A stretch of DNA of 64,000 nucleotides, from assembly GCF_988243305.1 (NCBI RefSeq), contig NZ_OZ547136.1. One strand, given 5' to 3'. This document shows positions 1,693 to 63,105 of the stretch, piece by piece (positions within the stretch are counted from its first letter, which is position 1; each line of letters starts with the position of its first letter). The notes beneath the pieces are model-generated. The model searched no databases and had not been told where the DNA came from. It saw only the letters and a program-made list of their open reading frames with translations. Position numbers and translations under genes: made by a program.

Positions 1693-2271
1693 TTAAACAG
1701 CCTGTACTCTCTGTTCATCCAGCAGTTGTGGGATAATATCGGCAGGATTCTGGGAAAGTTTACGTCTTTTTACTGCCCGGGATGGCGGCTGACATAAGCT
1801 GCAGGCAAAGCTGCCAACAGGCTGGTGAGCGTGGGTAATAAAATTGCCGCCGCAGCAGTTGCAGCTGGAAAGTTGCAGTAATCCACTTTCAACAAACCGT
1901 ACCAATGTCCAGGCACGGGTTAATGCCAGTAGCGGTCCTTCTTCTGCTTGCGGGCACTGTTCAAGGTATAAACGGTAGGCTTTGATTACCGCATCGACGC
2001 CATTACACAAGCCGGTTTTCAGTAAAAACTGCCATGCGTTACAGAACATCGAAGCATGAACGTTTTGTTCCCAGGTCATAAACCAGTCGGTTGAGAATGG
2101 CAGCATGCCTTTCGGCGGTGGGCTTCCGCGCAGTTCTTTATAGAGTTTTATCAGGCGTCCGCGACTTAACTGTGTTTCGCTTTCCAGCATCTGCAAACGA
2201 GCGCCCAGGGTGATCAATTCCATTGCCAGCTGAATATCCCGCGCTTCCTGAACAATGCTTTTTTCACTCAT
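1693..2271 (-). CDS. flhC: flagellar master regulator FlhC
   Basis: ORF contains [27 protein letters not shown]...; start taken at MSEK. Confidence 0.95.
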
Positions 2272-2273
2272 GA

Positions 2274-2624
2274 TCACGCCCTTTTCTTGCGCAGCGCTTC
2301 TTCAGGCTGATTAACATCATTCAGCAAGCGTGTTGAGAGCATGATGCCGGTATGAATTTGCTGGAGATCGTCAACGCGGGAATCTTGCGTCAACTGAGTA
2401 ATCGTCTGGTGGCTGTCAAAACGGAAGTGACAAACCAGTTGATTGGTTTCTGCCAGCTTAACCATTTGCGGAAGAGTCAGTGCCGCTAACGTTGTCGCCA
2501 TTTCTTCATTTATGCCGAGACGAAACATTGCGGACGCTTTGTCCTGAACAATCAGACGCTGTGCAAGTAGTAAATATGACAAGTTGATGTCATAAATGTG
2601 TTTCAGCAACTCGGAGGTATGCAT
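2274..2624 (-). CDS. flhD: flagellar master regulator FlhD
   Basis: [29 protein letters not shown]...; alternative upstream start at 2633. Confidence 0.9.
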
Positions 2625-2633
2625 TATTCCCAC

Positions 2634-3404
2634 CCAGAATAACCAACTTTATTTTTATGCGGTCTCACCGCACCCCGTGATGTCGCCGGGAAGCCCCGGT
2701 AAAAAATAATTAGCATTAGAATAGTTGCGATAAGCTGCAATAGGCAGAGCCCCTTTTTTGGATTTAATAAGTCCTTACAAATAGAAGGGGTTCTTTACAC
2801 TTATCTAAGATTTTTCCTAAATCGACGCAACTTTACTCGTCACTACACTCACATACAACGGAGGGGGGCTGCGATTTTCAATAATGTGTGATGCAGATCA
2901 CACAAAACGCTCAATTACTTAACATAAATGTATAAGTCATACTTTTGTTTTGGGTGTATTTCAATCTGTTAAAAAGTTTTTCGCTACGATAGCAAGTAAA
3001 AATGAAACAGGAATAATCGAAATGGGATGTTGCGCACAGTTAAAATAACTCACCGTAAATAATCATCTGCTATAAATAATTGCTTTAATGCAATACCCGA
3101 TAAGCTATTTTTAAACAGACACTTACCGCACAACAAACTAATTAAATACAAAGAAAGGCAACAATCAACTTAATGTTAATAAAATGTTTTACATATATTA
3201 ACCACTTGTTTGATATGGAGAATCAGTACATTATTTTCTTATAATTACAGTTGAAATCATATGATCACCGAGAGTGATTGATTAATTGTATTTACTAATA
3301 ATCACACTAATATTTACCTGTTTGACTGAGTTGGGATTGCGTCGATTCTCCATTAGGAGTAAAGCTTTAATGTCACCTGAAGTTCACAGAATAAGGAACA
3401 GGTT
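2634..3404 (-). promoter_or_regulatory. flhDC upstream control region (long AT-rich leader/promoter)
   Basis: ~770 bp AT-rich non-coding DNA between flhD start and divergent uspC; position matches the known flhDC regulatory region; individual sites not resolved. Confidence 0.5.
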
Positions 3405-3839: not shown

Positions 3840-7195
<3,356 letters not shown>

Positions 7196-8790: not shown

Positions 8791-9780
8791 TTACTTACCG
8801 CCTAAACCTTTTTTCTCCAGTTCTTCTTTAAAGTTGTCACGCGTGATCAGTACCACGTCGGTAACTTCGGTAAATTTTGGCGGTTCAACGTCTTTTGCTA
8901 CCCAGTTGTAAAGCATTTCACTGGATTTATAGCCATGTACGTCCGGGCTTGGCAGCAGGGAACCGTAGAAGCCGGTTGCCTGTGCTTTAGACAGTTCGCT
9001 TACTGCATCCACACCGTTAATACCAATACCGATGATATCGGCTGCTTTAAAGCCCTGACCTTCGGTTGCACGTACGCCGCCAAGTACGGTGCTGTCGTTC
9101 ATACCGACGATCAGCCAATGTTTAACTTCCGGATGTTGAACCAGCATTGAGTTGGCAGCGTCAAATGCCCCCGGGATGTCGTTAGATTTGGTAGGTACCT
9201 GATAAATTTGTTTTTCCGGGAATCCGGCCGCTTTCAGCGCATCCATAGATCCCGTAGTACGGCGACGTGCCGTATCCAGTTCGTTGGCGGTAATCGCCAT
9301 CACCGCGCTTTCTTTGACATCCCAGCCACGTTTCTGCATCTCTTTATACAGTTCCTGGCCCTGACGTTCGCCAATTTTAGTCGCCGCCATCATCACCAGA
9401 GGAACGGTATCCATTGGCTTACCTTTGGCGTTAACAAACTGGTCATCCACGGCAATCACTTTCATATCGTAACCACGCGCTTTCGCCACAATGGCAGAGC
9501 CGAGCTTCGGGTCCGGAGTACAAATAACGAAACCTTTTGCGCCACTGGCTGCCAGGCTATCGATCGCGTTCAATGTTTTTTCGCCATCCGGCACGGCAAT
9601 CTTAATAACCTCAAACCCTAAATCCTTCCCGGCTTTATCGGCAAACTTCCATTCGGTCTGGAACCACGGCTCTTCCGGTTGCTTCACCAGGAAACCGAGC
9701 TTCAAGTTCTCCGCCATAGCGGATTGTGACATAACGGCTGCCAGACCAATGGCTGCCAGGGCTTTAGTAAATTTGTGCAT
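8791..9780 (-). CDS. araF: L-arabinose-binding periplasmic protein
   Basis: 329-aa ORF with signal peptide MHKFTKALAAIGLAAVMSQSAMA followed by ENLKLGFLVKQPEEPWFQTEW. Confidence 0.95.
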   Translation of the reverse strand: MHKFTKALAAIGLAAVMSQSAMAENLKLGFLVKQPEEPWFQTEWKFADKAGKDLGFEVIKIAVPDGEKTLNAIDSLAASGAKGFVICTPDPKLGSAIVAKARGYDMKVIAVDDQFVNAKGKPMDTVPLVMMAATKIGERQGQELYKEMQKRGWDVKESAVMAITANELDTARRRTTGSMDALKAAGFPEKQIYQVPTKSNDIPGAFDAANSMLVQHPEVKHWLIVGMNDSTVLGGVRATEGQGFKAADIIGIGINGVDAVSELSKAQATGFYGSLLPSPDVHGYKSSEMLYNWVAKDVEPPKFTEVTDVVLITRDNFKEELEKKGLGGK

Positions 9781-10576
9781 GGTTCTCTCCAGCTTTAGTG
9801 TCGTTTTGTGTAGGGCAAAAACGAATAACTCTCGTTAATTTAATCGGAAAACAAAGCATTACCTTTTAACTAAAAGATAAGTGACTGTGTTGACATAGTT
9901 TTAGCGAGAAATTAATTCTCCATAGGAGAGCAATATCACATCGCAGAATTACAGTGAGAACGTGCATAAATTTAGCGGGAAAAGACATAGAGAAAGACTC
10001 ATTTGTCAGACAAATCATCGAGTACACAGCAGATTAATCCATAAGATTAGCCTGGAAGTCCTTGTTGTGTTTTGTACCCATACGGAACGTCTTCTTTTTA
10101 ACCAGTCAATTGGCCACATTACCTGGCGTTGAGCTTTTGAAATGGTGTAATAACAGCAACTCAAAGATGTGGAAAATGAGCGTCATTCATTTCGCCATTA
10201 ATTATCACCGTGCTCATTAATTAACAGAACACGTATACTGAGAGCCATATCGCAAATATGAAAAAACGTTTTAAAAAATCATTGCTTCATCATGAATTCA
10301 AATCCCCCTATTAATATCAACAAGATACAAAAAGCATCATCATTAAAATTCATTGCAGTTACATTGATTTCATCAATGAAATGTAAAAATATATAAACTT
10401 GATGATTTAAGCATTTTCTTATACCCGTTCAGACGTTATTCTTATTTCAGATCATCGTCAGAATTGACTCCACGATCACATTTCGGACCGGCAGAAAGGA
10501 ATTATTCTGCAAACAGTAATTATGGTGTTTTGATTTATCTTGCACCTCTCCACTTCTGGATATAAGGATATTAGGT

Positions 10577-51550: not shown

Positions 51551-52063
51551 TTAAAAGGGGGAGGATTCTTCATACAGCCTGCAAACGCGCTCATAACTCA
51601 TCACTGTACGCGCTGACATCCCCAGCACATCCAGCATCTTGCGGCGGTGCCAGCGTTTGAGACGCTCCAGCACATCAGAGGCCAGCGCGGGGTGTTGTTC
51701 CAGCCACTGCCAGTTAGCCACACCTTCGCCGCCGTTCTGAGCGACCGTCTGCGATTTCACCCAGCGGTTAAGGGCTGTTTCCCCGCCATCAGAGATAAAG
51801 CCCTGCCGGTGCATCACCTTCCAGATGGCGCGAATTTTGGCGGTCACCGTACCCGGTTTTAAGGCCCGGTTAACCGGCTTCTGACGCACTTTAAAACCGC
51901 GTTTTTTGAAAACATCCAGCACGCGGGATAACTCATCCGGTGACATATCCCGGCAACTGGGTTTACCGGTGGCTGCCAGTAGTACGGATGTGTAGGTCTC
52001 ATGGTCAAGCTGTAGATCGCGTTTTGCGACATGTATTAAGGTAATCAGGGAAGCGCGATTCAT
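51551..52063 (-). CDS. GemA/gp16-like protein
   Basis: N-terminus MNRASLITLIHVAKRDLQLDHETYTSVLLAATGKPSCRDMSPDELSRVL resembles Mu-like gp16 (GemA) family as I remember it. Confidence 0.6.
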   Translation of the reverse strand: MNRASLITLIHVAKRDLQLDHETYTSVLLAATGKPSCRDMSPDELSRVLDVFKKRGFKVRQKPVNRALKPGTVTAKIRAIWKVMHRQGFISDGGETALNRWVKSQTVAQNGGEGVANWQWLEQHPALASDVLERLKRWHRRKMLDVLGMSARTVMSYERVCRLYEESSPF

Positions 52064-52127
52064 TATCGTGTCTCCGTAACAACAGGCGGCATGGCAACGC
52101 CGCCCGGATAAAACTAAAGGTATCGAT

Positions 52128-52475
52128 ATGAAAATAGATTACGATGAAGTATTAAGTATTCTCACAACTTTTCAGGATGCTGAAACACCTTTCCTTACAC
52201 TACAGGATCTGGGCATGGCTGAGGCAGAAGGAGAGGAAAAGGATAAAAAAGTTTTTCATCTTATGCTTCTCGCTGATAATGGCTCAATTGTTAATGGTGA
52301 TATGCAGTCAGAAACACCCAAATATATTGGTTTCTTTTTCCATTCTCTGGGCGTTGGTTTCAGAAACACGCCCATTATGCTTACCCAGCAGGGGCATGAT
52401 TTAGCTAACGCCCTGAGAAAAAACCAATCCTTGAAAGAATCAAAAAGGAGTTTACAGACGCACCATTTGATCTAA
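52128..52475 (+). CDS. hypothetical protein (115 aa) on opposite strand within early operon, low GC
   Basis: AAAGG SD 7 nt upstream of ATG; AT-rich; only plus-strand gene in this otherwise minus-strand early region. Confidence 0.5.
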   Translation: MKIDYDEVLSILTTFQDAETPFLTLQDLGMAEAEGEEKDKKVFHLMLLADNGSIVNGDMQSETPKYIGFFFHSLGVGFRNTPIMLTQQGHDLANALRKNQSLKESKRSLQTHHLI

Positions 52476-52498
52476 TTAAAGAAGTTACCAAATCAATG

Positions 52499-52807
52499 TT
52501 AACCAGGTTCGTCAAAGAACGTATTGGGATTGACTGAACAACTTAATTCAGCCAGTAATCGCAGGGCGGCGACAGCCGCCTGCTTGTCACTTCTTTTAGC
52601 TATTTCCGCAAGAGTATGCACAATCCATAACGGACTTAACGCCACGGCTGAATCCAGAATCATGTCATCCATAATAATTTCTGGCATATCCCGCTTGTCA
52701 CATTCTTTATCCATAAAAGAAACGAATTTCTCTGCATCTTCCGGTTTCATGCCTCCGGCGATAAGGATTTTGCGATATTCATAAGACGATCTTAATTCAA
52801 TACTCAT
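52499..52807 (-). CDS. hypothetical protein (102 aa)
   Basis: ORF in low-GC island. Confidence 0.4.
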   Translation of the reverse strand: MSIELRSSYEYRKILIAGGMKPEDAEKFVSFMDKECDKRDMPEIIMDDMILDSAVALSPLWIVHTLAEIAKRSDKQAAVAALRLLAELSCSVNPNTFFDEPG

Positions 52808-52822
52808 TATTCACCTGCCTGC

Positions 52823-53215
52823 TTAATCTGTTTCCAGTGCTTTGCTACGGGCTATAGCCTCACATTCAAAAAATACCGACTCCGGCACGCGCTCTTTTAA
52901 TTCACGAACAAGGAAATCATTAACGCGTTCATGACGTCTTATATTTCTTTCCTTTTCCTCCTGGCGCAATACAGCAAGGCGGTATTCAACAGCCCGGCGT
53001 TGTTTCTGAAAGACAGCCAGTGCTTTTCTGGCAGCATTACGCCATGCATCATCGCCACATGGTGCGTATTCAAGCTGAAATTTAATCTCTTCAATAGTTT
53101 CTTTGATTTTTGCCAGCAAGCTAAGACAGTCGCTTATTGTCTCCAGCTTTTCATTATCAATATAACTTCTCACGCATTCACCTCCCGTAATTCCGGTAAA
53201 GCCGAAATATGACAC
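52823..53215 (-). CDS. hypothetical coiled-coil protein (start probably internal)
   Basis: ORF overlaps upstream gene by 46 nt; Lys/Glu/Arg-rich. Confidence 0.4.
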   Translation of the reverse strand: MSYFGFTGITGGECVRSYIDNEKLETISDCLSLLAKIKETIEEIKFQLEYAPCGDDAWRNAARKALAVFQKQRRAVEYRLAVLRQEEKERNIRRHERVNDFLVRELKERVPESVFFECEAIARSKALETD

Positions 53216-53499
53216 CAGTGCGTCACCTGTCCGTCTTCATCTTCAAGGCAGGCTCCGGTTTCTTCATCAACAAAAAAGCCTTCATACCCCATATGGCCGA
53301 TGCGCAGCTCCTGACGGTGACCATACTGAACAATCAGCACGACAGCCTCCATATCAGGTGGGAAAGTATCATTCAGTGAATGCCAGGGATAACCGCGTAA
53401 ATCCCCGAAATAAACACCGGTCAGCGTTCCGCCACAGAGCGGCATTCCGGCGGCACACACAAGAGGTTCATCTGATTCAACAAATAAGGTCGTTATCAT
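53170..53499 (-). CDS. hypothetical protein (109 aa)
   Basis: ORF, 4-nt overlap with upstream gene. Confidence 0.4.
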   Translation of the reverse strand: MITTLFVESDEPLVCAAGMPLCGGTLTGVYFGDLRGYPWHSLNDTFPPDMEAVVLIVQYGHRQELRIGHMGYEGFFVDEETGACLEDEDGQVTHWCHISALPELREVNA

Positions 53500-58142: not shown

Positions 58143-60233
58143 TCAGGCCAGCGGATCACTTTCTTTTAATTTCGCTTCGAGCAACTGCAATCCCCGCTGG
58201 AAATTACGCTCGTATTCTTCATCAGGTTCATCGTCAGCGACCGGTTGCTGAACGATCACCGTATTACCCACAGGGCGGTATATATTTTCCAGCCACGGCT
58301 CCTGTGGCTTGTGCTCCAGCACGTTGACAATCTCATCCTCGGCATCACGGATTTTTTCCTCTGCGCGTTTACGCATGCCTTTAAGGCGCTGCTGCTGTTT
58401 GTGGTATTCCGCGCTGACCGGGAAGGCTTCGCGTTTATTGCCGTCCCATACCGCCTCGCAAATCACGCTGCCATCCAGGCGACGTACGGTAATTCGTTCG
58501 GCATCATGAATGTCATAGCTGATAAGCACCTTACGACCATGCTCGTCACGCAGCTCGGGCGCGTAGTAAATATTATTCAGCCAGCGTATTTCACAGCGTC
58601 TTACAGGGCGCTCCACCATCGGCCGGAACATATCCCGCAGTTCAACATCGGACAGCCATTCAATTTCCGTGTCCTCTTCCGCCAGGCGTTTTTTTCTGAA
58701 CTCCGCCGGGCTGTAATGTTTACCGTTCGGCTTCATGGGTAATTCATCGTGCGGCCGGTTGTTGTACCACTCAACACCATCACGAATGGCATCAATCAGT
58801 TCAGCCCAGGACGGTGAATCACGCATCGCTGACTGCTGCCGGGCGTTCAGCCGTTTGCCCTGTTGCAGGGCAGTAAATGCCGAGCGTAAATCGCGGTTGG
58901 TTTTGCGTAACGTCTCGCGATCTGCACCTTTCCCGAAATAGGTGCGGTATTTACGGGCTATGCGCATCGGTAATGTGCGGTTAAGCCGTTCGATAATGCC
59001 TCGTCCCTGCGGATTACCGGCAATCCCGGTCGGGTGATTAATCCCCAGTCGCGGCAGTATCCCCACAACCTCCTTATCCAGGATGTCGGCGGTTTCCCCG
59101 GAGCCGTTATCCGAGTAATACAGAAACGGTTTGCCGTGATGGCGAATGCCGTGCTGTATGGCACCGGCTACGGCGAAAACATTTTCAGCCAGGTCAAGGC
59201 TCCAGCCCACCACAAAGCGCGTGCCACCGTCGATAACAAAGGTCACTTCCGGTGCAAATGGCCGACCGTGAACCGGGTGTGCGCATTTCAGCTTCATGCC
59301 GTGACCGTCACCAATCCAGACATAATTCACCGGCATTTTTGACCAGTCGCGGCGCGTGAATCCCTCAAGCTGGCGGTATTCACTGCCGGTCACCCGGCCT
59401 TTTTGTTTCACCACTTCCGGCAGTTTCTTCATTGCGCGGCGAATGGTGTCATAAGACGGCATGATATCGAGCATATAAGGCTCATCAGCGTGCCGGTGCT
59501 GCCATTCAGCGACAAAATCCTCGTAAGCCTCGGTCATTGGTCGGCCGTTTGACTGGCGATACTGCGCCAGAAATTCGGGCAGCCAGTTAATATCTTCGGC
59601 TTTTATTTCCTGGCGCTTACCCGGTGCCAGTAAAAGCAGGCGTTCAGCGGCGTTCTGCGCCTTGTTAAAGGCCGCAATCCAGCGTTTCAGCGTGATTTCA
59701 CTTAACGCGCGGCTGTTTCCCTTTTTGGCGTTCGCCGTCTCAACCATTGCCACAATGCGCTCGTCCAGCTGCGAACGTGCCAGGTTGTCAACGATAAACC
59801 GGATAGCCTTCGCACAGCTGAAACCAGGTTGTTGCGCGACTTTCAGAACTTCGCTGACGATCGCGATTCGTGCATCAGCCACCTGGCGCTGGTTTTCAGT
59901 CAGGGCATTAAGGCGTTCGACCATCAGTTGTGGTGATCCGCGATATGCCTCCACCGCATCAACCACGGCAGGCGAGCGTCTGGCCTTTGTCACCACTGGA
60001 GCCGGTGATTCATCGACTTTTTGAGTCATCAGTTGCAGGGCGTAGCGTTCACGTAATGCCTGCTGCGTCACTTCAGGTAAACAGTCGATGCTGTATTCAG
60101 TTGCTTTAGAGCCTGAGCGACGACGGGAACAACAGCTTTTCCCTTGTACGTAACGTTGTAATGCCTGGCGAATACCTTTTGTTGTAGCAGGCATTCCGGG
60201 CGCACCAATCAGTTCTTTTGCAATGACATACAT
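58143..60233 (-). CDS. A: Mu-type DDE transposase A
   Basis: 696-aa ORF directly downstream of ner; N-terminal DNA-binding domain and central catalytic region of Mu A size. Confidence 0.85.
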   Translation of the reverse strand: MYVIAKELIGAPGMPATTKGIRQALQRYVQGKSCCSRRRSGSKATEYSIDCLPEVTQQALRERYALQLMTQKVDESPAPVVTKARRSPAVVDAVEAYRGSPQLMVERLNALTENQRQVADARIAIVSEVLKVAQQPGFSCAKAIRFIVDNLARSQLDERIVAMVETANAKKGNSRALSEITLKRWIAAFNKAQNAAERLLLLAPGKRQEIKAEDINWLPEFLAQYRQSNGRPMTEAYEDFVAEWQHRHADEPYMLDIMPSYDTIRRAMKKLPEVVKQKGRVTGSEYRQLEGFTRRDWSKMPVNYVWIGDGHGMKLKCAHPVHGRPFAPEVTFVIDGGTRFVVGWSLDLAENVFAVAGAIQHGIRHHGKPFLYYSDNGSGETADILDKEVVGILPRLGINHPTGIAGNPQGRGIIERLNRTLPMRIARKYRTYFGKGADRETLRKTNRDLRSAFTALQQGKRLNARQQSAMRDSPSWAELIDAIRDGVEWYNNRPHDELPMKPNGKHYSPAEFRKKRLAEEDTEIEWLSDVELRDMFRPMVERPVRRCEIRWLNNIYYAPELRDEHGRKVLISYDIHDAERITVRRLDGSVICEAVWDGNKREAFPVSAEYHKQQQRLKGMRKRAEEKIRDAEDEIVNVLEHKPQEPWLENIYRPVGNTVIVQQPVADDEPDEEYERNFQRGLQLLEAKLKESDPLA

Positions 60234-60234
60234 A

Positions 60235-60483
60235 TCATGACGCCTTTCTCATATAGCTCTTAACCTGGTATCGACTGGGCCAGATTTCTTCAGGCGATAC
60301 CCCAAGAGCATCAGCAATTATTTGCTGATACGGTCGGCAAGGAGTACGTAATACGCTTTTCAGCGAATCCCTGCTGTAACCAGCCTTTAAAGATAAAGAG
60401 CGCAGTGATAAGCCAGCCATGTGTAAGCGCGCCTTGATGATTTCAGGCGGCCAATCGTGATCTGAAACTTCTCTTCTACTCAT
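60235..60483 (-). CDS. ner: Ner-like DNA-binding regulator
   Basis: 82-aa ORF with ...QIIADALGVSPEEIWPSRY resembling Mu Ner/Nlp family. Confidence 0.8.
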   Translation of the reverse strand: MSRREVSDHDWPPEIIKARLHMAGLSLRSLSLKAGYSRDSLKSVLRTPCRPYQQIIADALGVSPEEIWPSRYQVKSYMRKAS

Positions 60484-60650
60484 ACTTCCTCTATTCTAAA
60501 AAGTTACCCGCGCGGATATTCGTGCGGATATCTGTACGGGTAAATAATAGAACAAACAAAAGAACCAAATCAAGGTATTTTGTTCTTTTTATTCTTTGCG
60601 GTGTTTTTGTTATTAATATCAATAAGATAAATAAAAAGGAACCTGAGAGC
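60484..60650. promoter_or_regulatory. c-ner divergent promoter/operator region
   Basis: 167-bp intergenic region between divergent c and ner; contains IR TTACCCG...CGGGTAA (60504..60543) around direct repeats GCGGATATT/GCGGATATC. Confidence 0.5.
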
Positions 60651-61235
60651 ATGAACATGAAAAACAGTTCTTTTCTCGACGAAGGAAAAGAACCAGTGAT
60701 CGAACGGATTTTTCGTCTTGCAGAGCGTTACAAATCGAGAAGTGAGGCGGCTAGAGCATGGGGAATAAACGTTCAGACATTGCAGAACTACTACAAAAGG
60801 AGAAACAATCAGCCGCCACCACAACCAAGAAAGCACCATCTCCAGAACATTGCAGAAAGAGAACATGTATCTATGGAGTGGCTGGTCAATGGTTATGGTG
60901 ATGAGCCAAGCATGAAAAAAGAACCAATTGAACAAACAAAAAGAACAAAAAAACAAAGAATTGATGATAGTGATTCCATCATCATGAGGGCGTGGGACTC
61001 GCTAACTTCATCTGAACAAGAGATTTTGTCCAACTTATTGATCAGAAAAGGGGCCGAACTACTAACCGTTTTGCTTGATACAGATATTCAAAAACTGCAC
61101 TCATTGAGCGGAGTCAAAAGAGCACTAGCATTGAGTCTACAAGAGTTACCCGATGATACTGTAAGAGAGATTTATGAAGAATGTGAAGCTAAGGTTAATC
61201 ATTTAAATGTAACCCAGAAAAAGGCTGGTGCGTAA
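60651..61235 (+). CDS. c: prophage repressor c (Mu c-like)
   Basis: Start at internal MNMKNSSFLDEGKEPVIERI; HTH-like EAARAWGINVQTLQNYYKR; divergent from ner; ORF-track start 60522 would leave no room for operators. Confidence 0.7.
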   Translation: MNMKNSSFLDEGKEPVIERIFRLAERYKSRSEAARAWGINVQTLQNYYKRRNNQPPPQPRKHHLQNIAEREHVSMEWLVNGYGDEPSMKKEPIEQTKRTKKQRIDDSDSIIMRAWDSLTSSEQEILSNLLIRKGAELLTVLLDTDIQKLHSLSGVKRALALSLQELPDDTVREIYEECEAKVNHLNVTQKKAGA

Positions 61236-61321
61236 GGGAGTGGTGCAATTTTTGTGCTGTAGTACACTCCTTTAAAGACAATCTGGAGAAAAACGTTTTA
61301 AGCCTTTTTAAGCGTCAATCC

Positions 61322-63105
<1,784 letters not shown>

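What the first reader, a model, noticed from the sequence alone, without database searches (positions are those of the whole stretch)
52100..53220. Low-GC island in the early region containing an opposite-strand gene
Between gemA and the next early genes the sequence becomes visibly AT-richer. It holds one plus-strand 115-aa gene (52128..52475, own SD, antisense to the early operon) and two minus-strand genes of 102 and ~115-130 aa. An opposite-strand, compositionally distinct insert in the Mu-type accessory early region is the pattern expected for horizontally acquired defence, anti-defence or exclusion genes. None of the three proteins is recognisable to me.
Basis: partly seen in the sequence, partly recalled or inferred. 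Interest (0 to 1): 0.55.

Follow-up and report, generated by a model that had tools for sequence, protein, structure and literature searches.

The report
Broken prophage gene with conserved partner
The AT-rich patch in this E. coli Mu-like prophage holds a backwards-facing accessory gene (DUF2513 family, broken here by a one-base deletion) that across many phages comes paired with the neighbouring forward gene, an arrangement known from two phage "defence plus self-immunity" systems, although its function is untested.

Summary
GC is 0.417 over 52100-53220, against 0.55-0.60 in the adjacent core and late genes, and the three ORFs exist. It is not one 1.1-kb insert, though. Only 52037-52562 differs from the common O157-type relatives, and that segment is the plus-strand gene. 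The two minus-strand genes (phrog_1988, phrog_6158) are ordinary AT-rich early genes shared by most of 231 E. coli genomes carrying this prophage type.

The plus-strand gene belongs to DUF2513/phrog_585. It has a confidently predicted winged-helix fold, is acidic, and has no literature. The window's 115-aa ORF is a frameshifted allele (A6 instead of A7) of a 136-aa protein and lacks the conserved C-terminal helices.

In 13 of 18 DUF2513 lineages the gene converges on, and usually overlaps, a phrog_1988-family gene that runs with a lytic operon. This occurs in two unrelated settings: the Mu-like early operon and a myovirus baseplate operon. The partner often occurs alone.

The layout matches Tab/anti-Tab (phage JBD26) and TerI/anti-TerI (Listeria phage), with no sequence homology to Tab/anti-Tab. 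My best reading is a decayed copy of a candidate defence/self-immunity pair. The function is inferred, not shown.

The parts
51551..52063 (-). gemA (gp16 family). Last GC-rich core gene before the AT-rich stretch. The early operon runs right to left through here into mor.
   Evidence: ORF. RefSeq name from the 99.6%-identical TOE17 locus. GC 0.55, GC3 0.61.
52037..52562 (.). The only segment without homology to the common O157-type relatives. It holds the 5' end of gemA, a 64-nt spacer, the DUF2513 gene and the last ~21 codons of the phrog_1988 gene.
   Evidence: blastn breakpoints against L002 and L003. The complete segment is in 5 of 5426 E. coli genomes. Relatives carry two minus-strand genes (98 and 65 aa, GC 0.40-0.46) here instead.
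52085..52104 (-). GC-rich hairpin (GGCGGC-N8-GCCGCC) in the gemA/DUF2513 spacer. On the early-operon strand it is followed by TGTTGTTAC and then the gemA Shine-Dalgarno sequence, so it looks like a terminator. Role unexplained.
   Evidence: Sequence. Fold -22 kcal/mol, z = -2.2. The same hairpin has a clearer T-tract (TCTTTTTTGG, TTTCTTTTGG, ATTTTTTATGG) and a compensatory C-G to T-A change in L022, L006 and L052. It is retained in L060 after deletion of DUF2513.
52128..52475 (+). Frameshifted DUF2513/phrog_585 ORF: 115 aa, of which residues 1-97 are native and 18 are out of frame. The ancestral 136-aa frame would end at 52537.
   Evidence: Pfam DUF2513 E = 2.9e-4. phrog_585 E = 7e-18. AlphaFold2 model of the restored protein: pLDDT 97.2, winged helix plus three C-terminal helices.
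52418..52423 (+). A6 homopolymer run, which is A7 in intact copies. Site of the 1-nt deletion that truncates the protein at residue 98.
   Evidence: Run lengths: window and L020 have 6; L001 and L013-L019 have 7. All five complete E. coli genomes have 527 bp where the window has 526.
52499..52807 (-). phrog_1988-family gene (102 aa), co-oriented with the early operon. It is the conserved convergent partner of DUF2513, and the ancestral 3' overlap is 39 nt (52499-52537).
   Evidence: phrog_1988 E = 1.3e-38. Partner HMM hits across loci. N-terminal 76 residues are 93% identical to the O157-type protein and the C-terminus differs. No Pfam or PDB match.
52823..53173 (-). phrog_6158-family early gene (116 aa). 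AT-rich, but conserved in relatives at 93% identity, so not part of the variable cassette.
   Evidence: GC 0.43, GC3 0.34.
53170..53499 (-). phrog_6925-family early gene (109 aa), where GC returns to about 0.50. It marks the right-hand edge of the AT-rich patch.

Best explanation
What it is (well supported). This is a patch of the mosaic accessory early region of an E. coli Mu-like prophage. Its rare component is a ~0.5-kb cassette carrying a reverse-oriented DUF2513/phrog_585 gene. In this window a 1-nt deletion in an A-run has truncated that gene. The adjacent phrog_1988 gene is a regular early gene of these phages and is the conserved convergent partner of DUF2513.

How it most likely works (inferred). 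The intact pair is built like the prophage 'defence plus self-immunity' modules Tab/anti-Tab and TerI/anti-TerI. Being antisense to the lytic operon, DUF2513 would be made from the repressed prophage. As a small acidic winged-helix protein, it would bind a component of phage development rather than read DNA in the usual way. The phrog_1988 protein, made only when a lytic operon fires, would neutralise it so the phage can complete its own cycle. Phages that carry phrog_1988 alone would thereby escape DUF2513-bearing lysogens. In this window the DUF2513 side is probably dead and only the partner remains intact.

Shown: the anatomy, family assignments, fold, co-occurrence, the contexts and the decay events. 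Inferred: expression in lysogens, protein-protein neutralisation and any anti-phage effect.
For: Pair conservation. 13 of 18 DUF2513 clusters (80% identity) have a convergent phrog_1988-family gene at their 3' end, with overlaps of 39, 33, 30, 18, 15 or about 0 nt. PHROGs assigns the distant L041 pair to the same two families.

Contexts. The pair occurs in two unrelated operon settings. One is the Mu-like early operon, upstream of gemA (window, L022, L025, L036) or between gemA and mor (L038). The other is a myovirus baseplate operon between the spike and wedge genes (L009, L039-42). In both, the partner is co-oriented with the operon, overlapping the upstream gene by 4 nt in L039 and L041, and DUF2513 is antisense.

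Asymmetry. The partner is often alone: O157-type L064-79, L084, L088-93 and L095, and most of 231 E. coli genomes. DUF2513 of this subfamily is rarely without it.

Decay. Losses mostly remove DUF2513 and spare the partner: the frameshift (window and L020, which are 99.5% identical and not the same sequence) and a 357-bp deletion (L060). An ISKpn26 deletion (L004) removed both. The one case of partner loss alone (L019) is a remnant that IS1 cut off from the rest of the early region.

Precedents. In JBD26, tab (83 aa) lies on the opposite strand with its own promoter. [quoted passage not shown] The two always occur together. In the JBD26 record the genes converge with a 47-nt overlap and have lower GC than their surroundings. 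terI lies on the opposite strand of the early lytic module, and its self-immunity genes are in the early operon.

Protein features. In L033, DUF2513 follows an Arc/Mnt-like repressor gene on the strand opposite to Ant anti-repressor genes. The putative recognition helix is net negative across 86 family members (mean -2.4) and the family's median pI is 5.2.
Against: There is no experimental or transcript evidence. No sigma-70-like promoter was found upstream of DUF2513, although the same scan also misses the proven tab promoter. The AlphaFold2 model of a DUF2513-linker-partner fusion gave only pTM 0.61, with the partner's C-terminal tail at pLDDT about 51, which does not establish a complex. 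PADLOC gives no hit, and there is no homology to Tab or anti-Tab.

Confidence: 0.35

Rival explanations
1. Stand-alone regulator moron. DUF2513 is a small winged-helix transcription factor expressed from the prophage that regulates phage or host genes. Its adjacency to phrog_1988 reflects only where it first inserted and the later co-inheritance of two overlapping genes.
For: Confident winged-helix fold whose best structural matches are DNA-binding regulators. Weak relatedness to YjcQ. More distant DUF2513 members occur without the partner, at the edge of one prophage (L011) and between the lysis and terminase genes of a Klebsiella phage (L005). The partner occurs alone in most relatives.
Against: The pair recurs in an unrelated baseplate operon and at a different position relative to gemA, with both genes intact at 34-39% identity to the query. 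The would-be recognition helix is acidic across the family. No operator-like repeats or promoter were identified.
Confidence: 0.3
2. Regulatory switch inside the phage. The pair acts as a repressor-like protein and its antagonist, or the convergent transcription itself together with the hairpin upstream of gemA throttles read-through from the early operon into gemA-mor (or into downstream baseplate genes). This would tune the timing of lytic development rather than act on other phages.
For: In Mu-like phages the cassette sits immediately before gemA-mor. A terminator-like hairpin with a compensatory change is conserved in cargo-bearing variants (window, L022, L006, L052) and is absent from the O157 type, where gemA overlaps its upstream gene. 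The convergent 3' overlap would create antisense RNA. In L033 the gene lies in an immI-like Arc/Ant region.
Against: The window's T-tract is degenerate. L025, L036 and L008 lack this hairpin. The module is dispensable: it is deleted or frameshifted in several prophages and absent from most relatives. Protein-level conservation of both genes argues for more than a cis effect.
Confidence: 0.12
3. Nothing functional here. In this window the plus-strand gene is a pseudogene and the AT-rich patch is just the usual mosaic of neutral accessory early genes, with no present phenotype.
For: The frameshift removes residues 98-136, which are conserved across the family: matches run to residues 133-136, with P100, K106, A112 and P113 invariant in close relatives. 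Independent losses are seen in L060 and L004. Other early genes are equally AT-rich.
Against: This concerns only the present copy and is compatible with the best explanation for the intact module. The frameshift lies in a homopolymer, so an assembly error or a reversible slip cannot be excluded, although two non-identical records share it. The partner and the other genes are intact.
Confidence: 0.15

Closest known systems
Tab / anti-Tab of Pseudomonas Mu-like phage JBD26 (Patel et al. 2024, PMC10884400)
   Same: A small gene sits on the strand opposite to a lytic operon of a Mu-like phage. A small partner gene is co-oriented with, and tightly coupled to, the upstream operon gene. The two genes converge with overlapping 3' ends (47 nt in JBD26, 39 nt here). 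Both proteins are acidic with no enzymatic domain. Both genes have lower GC than their surroundings. The opposite-strand gene is almost always accompanied by the partner.
   Different: No sequence similarity. Tab is 83 aa, whereas DUF2513 is 136 aa with a winged-helix fold. The location is between the terminase genes in JBD26, not in the early or baseplate operon. In this family many orphan partners exist. Expression, binding and anti-phage activity are demonstrated for Tab and untested here.
TerI / anti-TerI (TERi) of Listeria prophage phi10403S (bioRxiv 10.1101/2025.02.27.640495)
   Same: The defence gene lies on the opposite strand within the early lytic module and overlaps a gene on the other strand. 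The self-immunity genes belong to the early lytic operon. This is the same operon class as in the window.
   Different: TerI is 65 aa and there are two immunity proteins. The host is Gram-positive. A tblastn search of DUF2513 against 50,697 phage records found only two Klebsiella phages, so no relatedness was detected. No direct comparison with the TerI sequence was made.
Pfam DUF2513 (PF10711) / YjcQ (PF09639); PHROG 585
   Same: Sequence-family membership. RefSeq names the intact protein 'DUF2513 domain-containing protein'.
   Different: The match to the Pfam model is weak for this subfamily (21.6 bits). The family has no known function, and the paper library holds nothing on it.
MarR / PadR / TubR-type winged-helix DNA-binding proteins
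   Different: No sequence-family match. No whole-protein structural match at E < 0.001. The recognition helix and the overall pI are acidic.
BstA / aba (Owen et al. 2021, PMC8585504) and phage P22 immI (mnt-arc-ant; own knowledge)
   Same: The general logic is a prophage-expressed function with a built-in way of sparing the phage's own lytic cycle. An opposite-strand, lysogen-expressed gene is embedded in a late region. L033 places DUF2513 in such an Arc/Ant island.
   Different: BstA is a large protein and its immunity element is DNA. In immI the proteins are RHH repressors and an anti-repressor. There is no homology to either.

Membership tests
Pfam DUF2513 (PF10711) / PHROG 585 | Significant match to the family profile over most of its length | tested here: met
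   Pfam E = 2.9e-4, model positions 1-96 of 100. 49 of 86 aligned relatives match at E <= 0.001 and 72 at E <= 0.1. phrog_585 E = 7e-18 over 1-126 of 128.
Pfam DUF2513 (PF10711) / PHROG 585 | Full-length, intact protein (about 130-145 aa, including the C-terminal helices) | tested here: not met
   The window copy is frameshifted after residue 97 (A6 against A7) and loses residues 98-136. Family matches extend to residues 133-136.
MarR/PadR-type winged-helix transcription regulators | Winged helix-turn-helix fold | tested here: met
MarR/PadR-type winged-helix transcription regulators | Sequence membership in a MarR or PadR profile family | tested here: not met
   No Pfam MarR or PadR hit for the query or any of 86 relatives. 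No NCBIfam hit. No PDB sequence hit.
MarR/PadR-type winged-helix transcription regulators | DNA-binding surface (basic or polar recognition helix and wing) and sequence-specific DNA binding | tested here: inconclusive
   Net charge of the putative recognition helix averages -2.4 and of the wing about 0. Only the last helix is basic. Binding itself cannot be tested with these tools.
Tab/anti-Tab-type prophage defence with self-immunity | Sequence homology to Tab or anti-Tab | tested here: not met
   hmmsearch bit scores below 0 and no meaningful blastp hit.
Tab/anti-Tab-type prophage defence with self-immunity | Small gene antisense to a lytic operon, convergent with a partner that is co-oriented with and tightly coupled to the operon | tested here: met
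   Window: 52128 (+) against 52807-52499 (-), 15 nt after the upstream gene. L039 and L041: the partner start overlaps the spike gene stop by 4 nt. 3' overlaps range from 0 to 39 nt. JBD26: 47 nt.
Tab/anti-Tab-type prophage defence with self-immunity | The opposite-strand gene is always accompanied by the partner | tested here: met
   13 of 18 clusters overall. Among relatives of 34% identity or more with sequence downstream, only L032 and L033-35 lack it, and L019 lost it to IS1. This is 'mostly' rather than 'always'.
Tab/anti-Tab-type prophage defence with self-immunity | Own promoter and expression from the repressed prophage | tested here: inconclusive
   No consensus promoter found. The same scan misses the proven tab promoter, so it is uninformative. 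No transcript data are available.
Tab/anti-Tab-type prophage defence with self-immunity | Direct binding of the partner to the opposite-strand protein | tested here: inconclusive
   AlphaFold2 of a linker fusion with 14 paired rows gave pTM 0.61, partner pLDDT 72-90 and tail about 51. Interface metrics were not available.
Tab/anti-Tab-type prophage defence with self-immunity | Anti-phage phenotype, and lethality to the phage of losing the partner alone | not testable with these tools
   Indirect evidence only: natural losses mostly remove DUF2513 or both genes.
Known defence systems (PADLOC-DB 2.0) | Match to a model of a known or candidate defence protein | tested here: not met
   No hit for DUF2513, the 116-aa or the 109-aa protein. 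The 102-aa protein gives only E = 0.068 to PDC-S72. No hits for the L033, L041 or L052 neighbours.

The most novel reading that the evidence does not exclude
phrog_585 (DUF2513) and phrog_1988 form a previously unrecognised, widespread prophage defence/self-immunity pair in Mu-like and other tailed phages of enterobacteria. A winged-helix protein made in lysogens blocks a step of incoming phage development by protein binding. The phrog_1988 genes found alone in the early operons of most E. coli Mu-like prophages, including the O157 Mu-like prophage type, are counter-defence genes left over from an arms race among these phages.
Probability: 0.3. Interest if true: 0.65.

Novelty: new member of a known kind. 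Interest (0 to 1): 0.42.

Why it matters
If the inference holds, a domain of unknown function with no literature (DUF2513) and a common but anonymous Mu-like early gene (phrog_1988) would both gain a role. The 'opposite-strand defence gene plus lytic-operon self-immunity gene' design has so far been shown in Pseudomonas and Listeria phages. It would then extend to E. coli prophages, with a simple sequence signature for finding more cases: a convergent, overlapping pair in which one gene is coupled to a lytic operon. It would also explain why this site next to gemA keeps exchanging cargo. For this particular window the practical message is more modest. The island is a mosaic of ordinary accessory early genes, and its most unusual gene is probably broken.

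Tried and rejected
PADLOC, NCBIfam, PDB sequence searches (single sequence and profile), Foldseek against PDB and BFVD, and Rfam all gave no informative match. The one Rfam hit (an archaeal snoRNA, below its gathering score) is chance.

Literature searches for DUF2513 and PF10711 returned nothing, and the YjcQ hits were irrelevant.

Sigma-70 promoter scans were negative, but a positive control showed them to be uninformative.

The search for related loci with the broad alignments failed for lack of a conserved block. Narrower alignments worked.

The fusion-protein structure prediction was ambiguous.

I first took the junctions in L013, L014, L016 and L017 for host-phage junctions. The ORFs at 28500-31000 are tail and baseplate genes, so these are internal prophage deletions.

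I rejected the idea that the conserved C-terminal 'F-x-E' tail of the partner exists only because of the overlap with DUF2513. DUF2513-less relatives (L088-93) keep it.

I considered and rejected homology with Tab/anti-Tab. I also rejected the reading of the whole 1.1 kb as one horizontally acquired insert.
Full report
**Setting**

The window is E. coli chromosome carrying a Mu-like prophage on the minus strand. Reading right to left: repressor and ner near 60.2-61.2 kb, then transposase A and B, Gam and a string of small early genes. After these come gemA (51551-52063), mor, the lysis genes and the late genes. Query 51500-53600 matches 231 of 5426 complete E. coli genomes. Only five of them cover the whole query, at 97.9-99.6% identity (TOE17, JE86-ST05, JE86-ST02, JKHS016, 102651). 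Most of the rest, largely O157 and other STEC strains, cover about 72% at about 92% identity.

**Checking the observation**

- GC over 52100-53220 is 0.417. The window as a whole is 0.516, and the adjacent gemA, mor, lysis and late genes are 0.55-0.60.
- Only 3.8% of equal-length windows are as low. Within the prophage, the only other such place is the repressor/ner region.
- GC3 is 0.37, 0.40 and 0.34 for the three genes, against 0.57-0.67 for core genes.
- The three ORFs are present at the stated coordinates. RefSeq and the PHROG alignment favour a 116-aa form of the third gene, 52823-53173.

**The patch is not one insert**

- Against the O157-type relatives, homology is lost only between 52037 and 52562.
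- That 526-bp segment holds the first codons of gemA, a 64-nt spacer, the plus-strand gene and the last ~21 codons of the 102-aa gene.
- Relatives carry two unrelated minus-strand genes there (98 and 65 aa), which are themselves AT-rich (GC 0.40-0.46).
- The 102-aa gene (first 76 residues 93% identical) and the 116-aa gene (93% identical) are shared with those relatives.
- Several other early genes are just as AT-rich: SANT183, p106, p75 and the repressor.
- The low GC is thus a property of the mosaic accessory early region as a whole. The plus-strand gene is its one rare element.
- The site next to gemA is a hotspot. Strain PO06021 carries an unrelated 79-aa opposite-strand gene there, overlapping a convergent 95-aa gene. 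S1-CAM-01-A has an ISKpn26 there.

**The plus-strand gene**

- In all five complete genomes and in seven IMG/VR loci the gene is 411 nt (136 aa). RefSeq names it 'DUF2513 domain-containing protein', WP_000687317.1.
- The window has A6 where the others have A7 (52418-52423). The frame shifts after residue 97 and the ORF ends at 52475 instead of 52537.
- One other record, L020, shares the short run. It is 99.5% identical to the window over 5.7 kb, with 26 mismatches. The frameshift is therefore an allele seen in two non-identical sequences, although a homopolymer assembly error cannot be fully excluded.
- The restored protein matches Pfam DUF2513 weakly (E = 2.9e-4) and phrog_585 clearly (E = 7e-18).
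- An exhaustive HMMER search found 114 cluster representatives, nearly all stand-alone proteins of 130-145 aa aligned end to end. The lost residues 98-136 are therefore a conserved part of the family.
- AlphaFold2 gives a very confident model (pLDDT 97.2, pTM 0.89): a winged helix followed by three helices.
- The family is acidic (median pI 5.2). The helix that would read DNA is net negative (mean -2.4 over 86 members), and only the last helix is basic.
- There are no PADLOC or NCBIfam hits and no papers.

**The conserved pair**

- Two relatives with about 50% identity sit in the same layout. Each lies opposite to its neighbours, beside gemA, and overlaps a convergent ~100-aa gene by exactly 39 nt. 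That gene is homologous to the window's 102-aa protein.
- I collected 39 viral loci with DUF2513 relatives and 41 with relatives of the partner, then scored the ORFs with family HMMs.
- 13 of 18 DUF2513 clusters (80% identity) have a convergent phrog_1988-family gene at their 3' end. The overlaps are 39, 33, 30, 18, 15 or about 0 nt.
- The five without it are a contig-end case (L032), a lineage in an Arc/Ant island inside a siphovirus tail module (L033-35), and three distant members.
- The pair occurs in different places:
  - upstream of gemA in Mu-like early operons;
  - between gemA and mor in L038;
  - inside a myovirus baseplate operon, between the spike and wedge genes, in L009 and L039-42.
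- In the baseplate setting the partner's start overlaps the spike gene's stop, and DUF2513 is again antisense.
- PHROGs independently confirms the baseplate context and assigns that distant pair to phrog_585 and phrog_1988.
- The reverse association is weak. The partner is a regular early gene just upstream of gemA in many lineages with no DUF2513 (O157-type, L084, L088-93, L095).

**Decay pattern**

- DUF2513 is frameshifted in the window and in L020.
- It is cleanly deleted in L060 (357 bp, equivalent to 52122-52478), with the partner and hairpin retained.
- It is removed together with the partner and the 116-aa gene by ISKpn26 in S1-CAM-01-A.
- The only locus that lost the partner but kept DUF2513 is L019. 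It is a remnant in which IS1 joins the locus to host DNA, so the phage can no longer grow lytically.

**Comparison with known systems**

Two experimentally characterised systems have this architecture.

- *Tab/anti-Tab in the Mu-like Pseudomonas phage JBD26.* tab (83 aa) lies on the opposite strand with its own promoter, is expressed from the prophage, and blocks tail assembly of invading phages. [quoted passage not shown] It is needed for the phage's own growth and is always found with tab (PMC10884400). In the JBD26 record the two genes converge with a 47-nt overlap, and both have lower GC than their surroundings.

The DUF2513/phrog_1988 pair shares the strand logic, the coupling of the partner to the lytic operon and the convergent overlap. 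It also shares the small acidic proteins, the co-occurrence asymmetry and the compositional deviation. It shares no sequence similarity with Tab or anti-Tab. I therefore describe it as working like these systems, not as a member of either family.

**Weak points**

- I could not show expression. Promoter scans are negative, but they also miss the proven tab promoter.
- I could not show binding. A DUF2513-linker-partner fusion, modelled with 14 paired and 48 unpaired rows, gave pTM 0.61. The partner was moderately confident and its tail disordered. The value is intermediate and no interface scores were available.
- Overlapping genes are inherited together regardless of function, and the winged-helix fold invites the simpler reading of a regulator.
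- I therefore give about 0.35 to the defence/self-immunity mechanism, 0.30 to a stand-alone regulator and about 0.12 to an internal timing switch. The remainder goes to 'no present function' or something not considered.

**Unexplained element**

The gemA/DUF2513 spacer holds a GC-rich hairpin (52085-52104). On the early-operon strand it is followed by a T-rich tract and then the gemA ribosome-binding site. It recurs with a clearer T-tract and a compensatory stem change in L022, L006 and PO06021. It is absent from the O157 type, where gemA overlaps its upstream gene. A terminator in front of gemA-mor is unexpected, and I did not resolve its role.

**Verdict**

The window itself is fairly ordinary. 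What deserves follow-up is the family-level lead, a conserved convergent pair with the architecture of known prophage defence/self-immunity modules.

Noticed in passing
L013, L014, L016, L017 (junctions equivalent to window 32394|51952, 28738|51764, 29572|51866): Three different internal deletions of the same prophage remove baseplate-to-mor and most of gemA. All end inside gemA, just short of the intact DUF2513 gene, and the early region is retained. The clustering of right-hand endpoints within about 190 bp is unexplained.
   Followed up: partly
window 52085-52104 (also L022, L006, L052, L060): A conserved GC-rich hairpin followed by a T-tract on the early-operon strand lies immediately upstream of the gemA ribosome-binding site. 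It occurs in variants that carry opposite-strand cargo. The stem has a compensatory C-G to T-A change. A terminator here would cut off gemA-mor.
   Followed up: partly
L052 935-1442 (E. coli PO06021, same site next to gemA): An unrelated 79-aa opposite-strand gene overlaps a convergent 95-aa gene by 20 nt at the same site. Both are AT-rich (GC 0.42 and 0.40) and have no PADLOC hit. This may be a second module of the same design.
   Followed up: partly
L019 about 4490-5230; L004 3688-4668: IS elements have hit this locus twice. IS1 truncates the phrog_1988 gene and joins it to what looks like host DNA. ISKpn26 replaces the DUF2513 gene through the 116-aa gene in strain S1-CAM-01-A.
   Followed up: partly
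window 61484-62296 and about 61496: The repressor-side end of the prophage (about 61496, inferred from a Mu-type TG end) interrupts the host gene dcyD. Only profile positions 1-235 of 328 of D-cysteine desulfhydrase remain. The cystine-binding protein gene follows intact.
   Followed up: partly
window 60200-61600: A second AT-rich patch of the prophage (GC about 0.39-0.41) covers ner, the divergent repressor gene and the end region. The repressor ORF has GC3 0.37 and no NCBIfam match.
   Followed up: no
L041 5464-5862 (+): Another opposite-strand gene (132 aa, hydrophobic, no PHROG or PADLOC match) sits inside the same baseplate operon, between the hub and spike genes.
   Followed up: no
L033 1556-5529: A P22 immI-like island lies inside a siphovirus tail module. 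Two Ant-type anti-repressor genes are on one strand. An Arc/Mnt-like gene followed by DUF2513 is on the other, convergent with a 348-aa phrog_6191 gene of unknown function.
   Followed up: partly
E. coli JE86-ST05 and JE86-ST02: The DUF2513-bearing segment matches at two to three places per chromosome in these strains, which would be consistent with more than one copy of the Mu-like prophage.
   Followed up: no
window 2000-3200 and 9200-10300: The lowest-GC stretches of the window (0.375-0.40) lie outside the region examined here and were not studied.
   Followed up: no
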